Source: Escherichia coli O127:H6 str. E2348/69 (GTDB taxonomy: Bacteria > Pseudomonadota > Gammaproteobacteria > Enterobacterales > Enterobacteriaceae). From it: a DNA stretch of 64,000 nucleotides. The DNA lies in the NCBI RefSeq assembly GCF_000026545.1, contig NC_011601.1; one strand, given 5' to 3'. Position numbers: made by a program. This document shows positions 27,201 to 30,200 of this stretch, piece after piece (within the stretch, counting starts at the first letter, position 1; every line of letters starts with the position of its first letter).

Positions 27201-30200
27201 GGGTGGCATGGAAGCGGCCAGAGCGGTATCTGAAGAGATGGCGGAAATTTACCTTGAACGCAATATGCAGTTGCAGATCCCCGGCTGGGATTTCCAGGGT
27301 GCGTGCCTGGGGCTGGACATTCGTCGCGTGGTAGAAACCGGCATTACGCCACTCATCAATACCGGTATCGCCCATAAAGAGGCGGGGATCGGGCAGATTG
27401 GCGCAGGCACCGTGCGGGCACCGCTGGCGTGCTTTGAGCAGGCGCTGGAAGCACTGGCTGAAAGCATGGGGATTGGTTGAGGAACGCACAATGACGATCA
27501 TCCATCCTCTACTTGCCAGCCGTAGCGCACCGAATTATCGCCAGTCCTGGCGGTTAGCGGGAGTGTGGCGGCGGGCGATTAACCTGATGACGGAAAGCGG
27601 CGAACTGTTAACGCTGCATCGTCAGGGGAGTGGTTTCGGCCCCGGCGGATGGGTGCTTCGCCGCGCGCAATTCGATGCGTTATGCGGTGGATTATGCGGC
27701 AATGAACGACCACAGGTTGTGGCACAAGGGATTCGCCTCGGGCGTTTCACGGTTAAACAGCCACAGCGTTATTGTTTGCTACGTATTACGCCGCCTGCGC
27801 ATCCTCAAGCGCTTGCCGTTGCATGGATGCAACGCGCGGAGGAAACCGGGCTTTTCGGGCCACTGGCATTGGCGGCAAGCGATCCGCTGCCTGCTGAATT
27901 ACGCCAGTTTCGTCACTGTTTTCAGGCCGCGCTCAATGGCGTTAAGACCGACTGGCGGCACTGGCTGGGTAAAGGCCCCGGATTAACGCCAAGTCATGAT
28001 GACACGCTGAGCGGAATGCTGCTGGCGGCCTGGTATTATGGCGCTTTAGATGCGCGCTCCGGTCGCCCGTTTTTTGCCTGTTCCGACAATCTTCAACTCG
28101 TTACCACTGCGGTGAGCGTCAGTTATTTACGTTATGCCGCGCAAGGATATTTCGCCTCGCCACTCCTGCACTTTGTTCATGCTCTGAGTTGCCCGAAACG
28201 TACCGCAGCGGCGATCGATTCGCTGCTGGCGCTGGGGCATACGTCAGGGGCCGATACGCTGCTGGGGTTCTGGCTTGGCCAACAATTATTACAAGGAAAA
28301 CCATGAAAACACTGGTTGTGGCTCTTGGGGGCAACGCCTTACTCCAGCGCGGTGAGGCGCTGACGGCAGAAAATCAATATCGCAATATTGCCAGTGCTGT
28401 ACCCGCGCTGGCGCGCCTGGCCCGTTCTTATCGGCTGGCGATTGTTCACGGCAACGGACCGCAGGTGGGGCTGCTGGCGTTACAGAATCTGGCGTGGAAA
28501 GAGGTAGAACCGTATCCGCTGGATGTACTGGTGGCGGAAAGCCAGGGGATGATTGGCTATATGCTGGCGCAGAGCTTGAGCGCACAGCCGCAGATGCCGC
28601 CTGTCACGACGGTGCTGACGCGCATTGAGGTTTCGCCTGATGATCCGGCGTTTTTACAGCCAGAGAAGTTTATCGGTCCGGTTTATCAGCCAGAAGAACA
28701 AGAGGCACTGGAAGCGGCTTACGGCTGGCAGATGAAACGTGATGGTAAATATTTACGCCGGGTGGTGGCGTCTCCGCAACCGCGTAAAATTCTCGACAGC
28801 GAAGCCATCGAGTTGTTGCTCAAAGAGGGGCATGTGGTGATTTGCAGTGGCGGCGGCGGTGTGCCTGTGGCGGAAGACGGGGCAGGGAGTGAAGCGGTGA
28901 TTGATAAAGATCTCGCCGCTGCGTTGCTCGCCGAGCAGATTAATGCCGATGGACTGGTGATCCTCACCGATGCTGATGCGGTATATGAAAACTGGGGAAC
29001 GCCGCAGCAACGTGCCATTCGCCATGCCACACCGGATGAGTTAGCGCCATTTGCCAAAGCCGATGGTTCGATGGGGCCGAAGGTAACGGCGGTGAGTGGC
29101 TATGTCAGAAGCCGTGGTAAACCCGCGTGGATTGGGGCGTTATCGCGGATTGAAGAGACGCTGGCGGGCGAAGCGGGGACTTGTATTTCGCTGTAGTGAT
29201 GGGCACCAGGCAATTGGCACATCTAGCCTGATGCGATGCTGGCGCGTCTTATCAGGTCTACAGGCGGTGTCGGAACGGTAGGCCGGATAAGGCGTTCACG
29301 CCGCATCCGGCAATCGGCACACCATGCCTGATGCGATGCTGGCGCATCTTATCAGGCCTACAGTCGGTGTTGGAACGGTAGGCCTGATAAGGCGTTCACG
29401 CCGCATGCGGCAAGAAAATGAGCATCAATTAACTGAACTTACTCTGCGCCCACATCACGCCGCTGGCATACTCCGGCGGCAGCAGTGGGATTAAGGCTTC
29501 CAGCGTCGCGGTCAGACGCGATGTGTCGCTGTCGGTCAAATTCAAATGCCCCACTTTACGGCCCGGACGGACTTCTTTGTCGTACCAGTGCAGATGCACA
29601 AGCGGCAGTTTCAGCCAGTCATAATTCAGATCGCTACCAATCAGATTGATCATCACCGACGGATTATTCACTACTGGTTGCGGTAACGGCAGATCGGTAA
29701 TTGCCCGCAGATGTAGCTCAAACTGGCTGATGCTGGCACCGTTTTGTGTCCAGTGCCCACTGTTATGCACACGCGGAGCCAGTTCGTTGATCAGCAGACC
29801 TTGTGGGGTGACAAAACACTCCATTGCCATCACGCCTACATAGCTCAGCTCCTGCATAATCGCCGACAACATCTCTTCAGCTTGCGCCTGTTGCTGTGCG
29901 TTGGCCTGCGGGAAAGCGACGCTGGTGCGCAAAATGCCGTCCTGATGCAGGTTATGCGTCAGCGGATAAAACACGGTGCTGCCATCAAAACCGCGCGCGC
30001 CAACCAGCGACACTTCACCAGAGAAGTTTATGCCCTGCTCGACAATACATTCGCCGTAGCATTCAGCCGGTAACTGTTCGGTTTCAGCGGCGCGTAAACG
30101 CCATTGACCGCGTCCGTCATAGCCACCAGTGCGGCGCTTAACAATCGCCAGCTCACCTAAACGATCAAACACCGCAGGCCACTCGCTGCGTTCGGCAAGT

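What the first reader, a model, noticed from the sequence alone, without database searches (positions are those of the whole stretch)
29227..29411. Tandem duplication of a complete BIME unit
A roughly 100-bp unit made of two inverted REP elements and a short linker is present twice in direct tandem between ybcF and purK. BIME copy number varies between strains and such arrays bind gyrase and IHF.
Basis: seen in the sequence. Interest (0 to 1): 0.2.

Follow-up and report, generated by a model that had tools for sequence, protein, structure and literature searches.

The report
Two-unit BIME-2 repeat between ybcF and purK
This is an ordinary, well-known kind of E. coli intergenic repeat (a BIME-2 array of REP hairpins) present here in two tandem 100-base copies, at a spot where other strains carry none to five copies.

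Summary
A 100-nt unit occurs twice in direct tandem (29203-29302 and 29303-29402, 89% identical). TRF reports 29209-29413, period 100, 2.0 copies, and it is the only strong tandem repeat in the 64-kb window. The window is E. coli E2348/69. The array fills the 232-bp spacer between the convergent genes ybcF and purK.

Each unit is z2 REP (36 nt), a 16-nt short linker and an inverted y REP (34 nt), followed by a 14-nt inter-unit linker. That is the defining layout of BIME-2.

The array has no long L linker and no IHF consensus, even allowing one mismatch. Two BIME-1 elements elsewhere in the window do carry that site. Gyrase binding is therefore the expected property here, not IHF.

Across 5,426 complete E. 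coli genomes this spacer carries none, one, two, three or five full units, plus a K-12-type variant with a truncated 70-nt unit. About 7% of sampled genomes have the two-unit allele.

The units are mosaic between alleles, which points to unequal recombination or slippage. E2348/69 has hicAB instead of the REP transposase gene rayT at its usual locus.

All of this is already-known biology, so interest is low.

The parts
28303..29196 (+). ybcF (carbamate kinase) coding sequence; stop codon TAG at 29194-29196
   Evidence: RefSeq annotation of the identical E2348/69 record (894-nt CDS); ORF ending at 29196
29203..29225 (.). Left edge of the repeat: decayed end of a y REP (GCACCAGGC for GCATCCGGC) plus a copy of the 14-nt inter-unit linker
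   Evidence: In register with 29303-29325 in the 100-nt repeat. O55:H7 keeps an intact GCATCCGGCAATCGGCGCACCAT at this position
29226..29261 (+). z2 REP, unit 1 (ends in CTAC on the + strand; 2 mismatches to the z2 consensus)
   Evidence: hairpin -17.5 kcal/mol, z -3.7
29262..29277 (.). Short (S-type) 16-nt linker between CTAC and GTAG, unit 1: AGGCGGTGTCGGAACG
   Evidence: Sequence. The linker occupies the same position as the 34-35-nt L linker of the in-window BIME-1 elements
29278..29311 (+). y REP, unit 1 (starts with GTAG on the + strand; 0 mismatches to the consensus)
   Evidence: hairpin -19.5 kcal/mol, z -4.4
29312..29325 (.). 14-nt inter-unit linker AATCGGCACACCAT
   Evidence: Sequence; conserved between internal units of the 3- and 5-unit alleles
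29326..29361 (+). z2 REP, unit 2 (2 mismatches)
   Evidence: hairpin -20.0 kcal/mol, z -5.4
29362..29377 (.). S-type 16-nt linker, unit 2: AGTCGGTGTTGGAACG
   Evidence: Sequence
29378..29411 (+). y REP, unit 2, partly decayed (G>T at 29385, C>G at 29407; two adjacent stem pairs lost)
   Evidence: fold -11.5 kcal/mol, z -0.75. The G>T change makes a 17-nt arm 94% complementary to the neighbouring z2 (I2)
29281..29358 (+). Match to Rfam RF02564 (naRNA4), a y + z2 two-hairpin RNA; it spans the junction between the two units
   Evidence: 83.1 bits against a gathering score of 59.5, E 7.7e-15, full model 1-77; the - strand scores 59.5 bits
29429..30496 (-). purK coding sequence, convergent with ybcF; its stop codon is 17 nt from the last REP

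Best explanation
The feature is a two-unit BIME-2 array, that is (z2 REP - S linker - inverted y REP) x 2. It sits in the spacer between the convergent 3' ends of ybcF and purK in E. coli E2348/69. It is one allele of a locus whose unit number varies from none to five across the species.

How the copy number changes (inferred): units are gained and lost by unequal homologous recombination or replication slippage between the 100-nt tandem units, with gene conversion shuffling variants among them. The REP-associated transposase RayT may have contributed in ancestors. It is not at its usual locus in this strain.

What the array does (inferred from established knowledge of BIME-2, not shown here): both convergent transcripts read into the array, and no intrinsic terminator lies in the spacer. 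The REP hairpins at the RNA 3' ends would impede 3'-to-5' exonucleases and so help set the 3' ends and stability of the ybcF and purEK messages. On DNA, the y REPs are preferred gyrase binding and cleavage sites, placed where convergent transcription builds positive supercoils. Differences in copy number are most likely close to neutral.
For: Tandem repeat.

REP types and layout: y with 0 and 2 mismatches, z2 with 2 and 2 mismatches, in alternating orientation, with 16-nt and 14-nt linkers.

Dispersed family: the y REP has 5 copies in the window against 0 expected. The 851-bp query that includes the array matches a median of 36 places per E. coli genome.

Rfam: the naRNA4 model, a y + z2 RNA from the BIME-2 cluster REP325, is matched above its gathering score (PMC4550694).

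Hairpins and terminators: three of the four REPs fold well (z -3.7 to -5.4). The whole spacer folds well as RNA on both strands (z -4.6 and -6.5). The spacer has no promoter-like or intrinsic-terminator-like site.

Copy-number variation: spacers of 132-138 (1 unit), 232 (2), 332 (3) and 532-533 bp (5 units; TRF 5.1 copies); K-12-type 194/204/266 bp with a truncated 70-nt unit; a 152-bp allele with no BIME.

Mosaic variant patterns among units of different alleles.

Literature: BIME-2 is z2 + y in tandem copies with an S linker, and the number at a locus varies between strains (PMC3333891, which cites Bachellier 1997 Genetics 145:551). Gyrase cleavage sites are over-represented in BIME-2, mainly in y REPs (PMC6379681).
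Against: Nothing contradicts the identification.

The functional statements rest on other BIME-2 loci. No transcript, gyrase or HU data were examined for this locus, and purK/ybcF do not appear in the held supplementary text of the gyrase-mapping paper.

The y REP nearest purK is decayed, so any hairpin effect on purEK mRNA may depend on the inner REPs or on the z2/y inter-REP pairing seen.

About 4% of genomes (238 of 5,426) carry no BIME at all here. This argues that the array is dispensable.

The REP consensus sequences used for typing were recalled from memory. They were checked only against other copies in the window and against the Rfam model.
Confidence: 0.9

Rival explanations
1. The array is a BIME-1 / RIP-RIB type element that works by binding IHF.
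For: REP pairs of the BIME-1 type do bind IHF through their L linker (PMC3333891). The window contains two such elements.
Against: The REPs paired with y are z2 (36 nt), not z1 (29 nt). The linkers are 16 and 14 nt, not the 34-35-nt L linker. WATCAANNNNTTR has no match in 29197-29428 even with one mismatch. The BIME-1 elements at 6299-6395 and 61186-61281 match it with 0 and 1 mismatch.
Confidence: 0.03
2. The array is chiefly a gene for a naRNA4-like nucleoid-associated RNA: a y + z2 two-hairpin RNA, processed from read-through transcripts, that bridges DNA cruciforms together with HU.
For: A full-length Rfam RF02564 match at 83.1 bits against a gathering score of 59.5. In vitro, condensation needs only two hairpins, not a particular sequence (PMC4550694). 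The locus is transcribed into from both sides, by inference from the convergent genes.
Against: Any y-z2 pair of any BIME-2 would match this model, so the hit shows family resemblance, not a dedicated gene. No promoter-like site lies in or next to the spacer. The array is absent or reduced to one unit in many strains. The published effect was tied to REP325 specifically.
Confidence: 0.1
3. The copy-number differences were produced by the REP-associated tyrosine transposase RayT (TnpA-REP), which cleaves and rejoins single-stranded BIMEs, rather than by homology-driven slippage or recombination.
For: RayT cleaves at iREP and linker CT sites and recombines BIMEs in vitro, and amplification models have been proposed (PMC3333891). 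rayT is present in 3,575 of 5,426 genomes. These include Z135-1, which has a 5-unit spacer at this locus.
Against: In E2348/69 the yafL-lfhA site that normally holds rayT carries hicA/hicB. Neither tblastn nor blastn finds rayT in that 49-kb stretch or in the window. Changes are always whole 100-nt (or 70-nt) units in register, and variants are shuffled among units, as expected from homologous misalignment. In vivo RayT-driven amplification has not been demonstrated, to my knowledge. The rest of the E2348/69 genome was not searched for rayT.
Confidence: 0.2
4. The repeat is a chance similarity or an assembly artefact, or it encodes small proteins.
For: Short ORFs of 31-56 aa cross the array.
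Against: 89-90% identity over 100 nt with no indels. The same allele is found in independent complete assemblies. The short ORFs are made of REP palindromes, and unit number and phase change between strains.
Confidence: 0.01

Closest known systems
BIME-2 family of bacterial interspersed mosaic elements (Gilson/Bachellier/Hofnung classification; summarised in PMC3333891)
   Same: y and z2 REPs in alternating orientation, a short S linker, tandem repetition, extragenic position at the 3' ends of genes, and strain-to-strain variation in unit number.
   Different: Nothing of substance. This copy has only two units, its left edge is a decayed y fragment and its last y REP is mutated.
REP325 / naRNA4 (Rfam RF02564; PMC4550694)
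   Same: A y + z2 BIME-2 unit; the covariance model is matched end to end above its gathering score.
   Different: REP325 is a six-unit cluster between yjdM and yjdN, with experimental evidence for HU binding. Here there are two units at another locus and no expression or binding data.
BIME-1 (RIP/RIB elements, IHF-binding)
   Same: It contains a y REP paired with an inverted second REP.
   Different: BIME-1 uses z1 and a ~34-nt L linker with an IHF site, and it occurs singly. Examples in this window lie at 6299-6395 and 61186-61281. The array studied here has none of these features.
REPtron (rayT flanked by BIMEs)
   Same: It contains the REP/iREP pairs that RayT recognises (5' GTAG plus an imperfect hairpin).
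   Different: It is not adjacent to rayT. The canonical rayT site in this strain holds hicAB.

Membership tests
BIME-2 | Built from y and z2 REPs (not z1) | tested here: met
   y at 29278-29311 (0 mismatches) and 29378-29411 (2 mismatches). z2 at 29226-29261 and 29326-29361 (2 mismatches each). No z1 match with <=7 mismatches. The consensus strings were recalled from memory and cross-checked against other in-window copies.
BIME-2 | REP and inverted REP separated by a short S linker rather than the long L linker | tested here: met
   16 nt between CTAC and GTAG in both units, against 34-35 nt in the window's BIME-1 elements.
BIME-2 | Occurs as tandem copies whose number varies between strains | tested here: met
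   2.0 copies here. Other genomes have 1, 3 and 5.1 copies, and some have none.
BIME-2 | Extragenic member of a dispersed, high-copy family | tested here: met
   It lies wholly between the ybcF and purK stop codons. Median of 36 matching places per genome. Five y REPs in the window against 0 expected.
BIME-2 | Bound and cleaved by DNA gyrase, mainly in y REPs | not testable with these tools
   Known for other BIME-2 loci (PMC6379681). This locus was not found in the held supplementary text.
BIME-1 (IHF-binding RIP/RIB) | z1 REP plus L linker carrying the IHF consensus WATCAANNNNTTR | tested here: not met
   No z1 and no L linker. No IHF match with <=1 mismatch in 29197-29428. The positive controls at 6337-6349 and in 61186-61281 do match.
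naRNA4 (Rfam RF02564) | Covariance-model score at or above the gathering threshold | tested here: met
   83.1 bits against 59.5, model positions 1-77, at 29281-29358 on the + strand.
naRNA4 (Rfam RF02564) | Expressed as a discrete RNA that binds HU and condenses DNA | not testable with these tools
   No expression or binding data are available here. No promoter-like site in 28900-29700.
REPtron | BIMEs flanking a rayT (tnpA-REP) gene | tested here: not met
   No rayT in the window. hicA/hicB occupy the canonical yafL-lfhA site in E2348/69.

The most novel reading that the evidence does not exclude
Unit number at this locus tracks lineage. The five-unit allele dominates the sampled strains whose flanks are closest to E2348/69, while most other lineages have one unit or the K-12-type truncated variant. 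This could reflect selection on purEK/ybcF mRNA 3'-end stability or on local gyrase recruitment rather than neutral drift. It could also mean that expansion and contraction continue in strains that have lost RayT. That would make the locus a natural test of RayT-independent BIME dynamics.
Probability: 0.1. Interest if true: 0.3.

Novelty: already known. Interest (0 to 1): 0.08.

Why it matters
It matters little beyond correct annotation. BIME-2 arrays, their y/z2 make-up, their gyrase affinity and their variable copy number between E. coli strains have been described since the 1990s. The result confirms that the spacer holds no gene and corrects the IHF attribution. It also documents one more hypervariable BIME locus, which could serve as a small typing marker or as a test bed for how such arrays expand and contract.

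Tried and rejected
- IHF site: the consensus was searched across the window and, with one mismatch allowed, within the array. None lies in the array; the BIME-1 controls are positive.
- Promoter and intrinsic-terminator scan of 28900-29700: nothing found, so the array is neither a classical terminator nor an independent transcription unit.
- K-12 MG1655 RefSeq annotation: checked for a named REP feature at this spacer; none is listed in the table returned.
- Gyrase-mapping paper: its held supplementary text has no entry for purK or ybcF. The RayT paper has no supplementary files held as text.
- rayT: not found in the window or at its canonical site in E2348/69. The rest of that genome was not searched.
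- Small ORFs across the array: rejected as by-products of the palindromes.
- Not attempted: a search of other species to date the element. It would cost a collection scan and would not change the verdict.

Full report
**Observation.** The sequence at 29197-29428 is the whole spacer between two convergent genes. These are ybcF (carbamate kinase, + strand, stop at 29194-29196) and purK (- strand, stop at 29429-31).
- The repeat finder reports two 100-nt copies in perfect register, 29203-29302 and 29303-29402, 89% identical.
- Tandem Repeats Finder reports 29209-29413, period 100, 2.0 copies, 90% matches, no indels, score 340.
- At score >=80 this is the only tandem repeat in the 64-kb window.
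- The window is 100% identical to the complete chromosome of E. coli E2348/69. The same 232-bp spacer occurs in independent assemblies, so the repeat is not an artefact.

**Anatomy, read on the + strand.**

| Coordinates | Element |
|---|---|
| 29203-29225 | decayed y-REP end plus a copy of the inter-unit linker |
| 29226-29261 | z2 REP (ends CTAC) |
| 29262-29277 | 16-nt linker |
| 29278-29311 | y REP (starts GTAG; exact consensus) |
| 29312-29325 | 14-nt inter-unit linker |
| 29326-29361 | z2 REP |
| 29362-29377 | 16-nt linker |
| 29378-29411 | y REP with two substitutions |
| 29412-29428 | 17 nt of unique sequence before the purK stop |

- Three of the four REPs fold into the expected imperfect hairpins (-17.5 to -21 kcal/mol, z -3.7 to -5.4).
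- The last y has lost two adjacent stem pairs and folds no better than shuffled sequence (z -0.75).
In the two BIME-1 elements elsewhere in the window (6299-6395 and 61186-61281), the long L linker occupies the same CTAC-to-GTAG position.

**Identity.** The layout is y plus z2 REPs in alternating orientation, with a short S linker, repeated in tandem, in an extragenic position. This is the published definition of BIME-2 (PMC3333891).
- The family is dispersed. The y REP has five copies in this window against none expected.
- A query containing the array hits a median of 36 places per E. coli genome.
- Rfam's naRNA4 model, a 77-nt y+z2 RNA from the six-unit BIME-2 cluster REP325 (PMC4550694), matches 29281-29358 end to end at 83.1 bits against a gathering score of 59.5. 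Any y-z2 pair would match this model, so the hit shows family resemblance, not a dedicated RNA gene.

IHF binding belongs to the L linker of BIME-1 (PMC3333891).
- The array has no match to WATCAANNNNTTR even with one mismatch.
- The two in-window BIME-1 elements match it with 0 and 1 mismatch.
- Gyrase, which preferentially cleaves y REPs of BIME-2 in vivo (PMC6379681), is the expected partner.

I fetched the spacer from 17 other complete genomes and parsed them.

| Spacer length (bp) | Content |
|---|---|
| 119 | a decayed remnant |
| 126-138 | one unit |
| 232 | two units |
| 332 | three units |
| 532-533 | five units (TRF 5.1 copies) |
| 194 / 204 | K-12 type: z2, a y remnant, z2, y |
| 266 | the truncated 70-nt K-12-type unit, itself at 2.8 copies |
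| 152 | no BIME; a different sequence, in 238 of 5,426 genomes |

I also took an evenly spaced sample of 59 genomes, using a query of the two flanks only. Architectures were inferred from spacer length. The counts were:
- 23 with one unit (126-138 bp)
- 1 decayed remnant (119 bp)
- 20 K-12-type (194/204 bp)
- 9 with five units
- 4 with two units
- 2 without a BIME
- 1 with the 266-bp variant

Three-unit alleles appeared in the first sample (H3 and H35). The two-unit allele is therefore a minority state, roughly 7%.

**History of the two units.** Aligning all units shows 11 differences between the window's two copies.
- Six lie in the left edge, which is decayed in the first unit of every B2-type allele.
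- Five lie in the z2-S-y core.
- A further y-REP difference (GCATCCGGC against GCATGCGGC, 29407) falls just outside the 100-nt register.
- The window's unit 1 is identical to unit 1 of the 5-unit alleles. Its unit 2 is identical to unit 3 of the 3-unit alleles.
- Internal units of the longer arrays carry shuffled combinations of the same variants.

This is the pattern expected from unequal recombination, slippage and gene conversion among tandem units. It does not look like a recent one-off duplication.

**RayT.** RayT (TnpA-REP) has been proposed to amplify BIMEs (PMC3333891).
- The gene is in 3,575 of 5,426 genomes.
- In E2348/69 the canonical yafL-lfhA site holds a hicA/hicB pair. Neither tblastn nor blastn finds rayT there or in the window.
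- RayT is thus unlikely to be acting on the array in this strain. An ancestral role cannot be excluded.

**Likely function (inferred).**
- The spacer has no promoter-like or intrinsic-terminator-like site.
- It folds strongly as RNA on both strands (z -4.6 and -6.5).
- Both convergent messages should therefore end in REP hairpins. From established work on REPs (Higgins/Newbury, cited in PMC12306157), such hairpins slow 3'-to-5' decay.
- On DNA, the y REPs would recruit gyrase at a site of convergent transcription.
- About 4% of genomes lack the element altogether and many have one unit, so the copy number is probably close to neutral.

**Verdict.** The feature is a textbook BIME-2 array at a hypervariable locus. 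It is already known biology and of low interest.

Noticed in passing
window 6299-6395 and 61186-61281: Two BIME-1 elements: z1 REP, a 34-35-nt L linker and an inverted y REP. The IHF consensus AATCAATATATTG lies at 6337-6349; the second element has a one-mismatch version. They served as in-window positive controls.
   Followed up: partly
window 55703-55830: A short REP-like palindrome (GCCCGATGCGCAAGCTTATCGGGCCTAC), 14 nt, then a y-like REP at 55738-55771. By eye it is followed by a hairpin plus T-run that looks like an intrinsic terminator (about 55795-55830).
   Followed up: no
L019 2295-2922 (E2348/69 chromosome 3907294-3907921): A hicA/hicB toxin-antitoxin pair lies between yafL and the lfhA pseudogene, the site that holds rayT in K-12. 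rayT is found in 3,575 of 5,426 complete E. coli genomes.
   Followed up: partly
L015 371-563 (strain 2018-05-2CC); L001/L011 (K-12): K-12-type spacers carry a truncated 70-nt unit (z2 plus only the end of y). In one strain this truncated unit is itself amplified to 2.8 copies, so amplification does not need an intact y REP.
   Followed up: partly
L007 598-749 (strain 729_021014_1_4): A 152-bp allele of the same spacer has no REP at all. It contains a G/C-rich palindromic segment (CCCCTCGCCCCTGTGGGGAGAGGGTTAGGGTGAGGGGG) whose core also matches one other place in many genomes. The full allele is in 238 genomes. The element type was not identified.
   Followed up: partly
L016 (strain GPEC874), spacer of 119 bp: A decayed allele in which the z2 REP is interrupted after GCCTGATGCGATGCTG by unrelated sequence, and only a y REP with a variant stem remains.
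   Followed up: no
window 29348-29391: The G>T change at 29385 in the last y REP makes a 17-nt arm that is 94% complementary to the adjacent z2 REP across the S linker. On the purK-sense RNA the predicted fold pairs z2 with y instead of forming the two separate hairpins.
   Followed up: no
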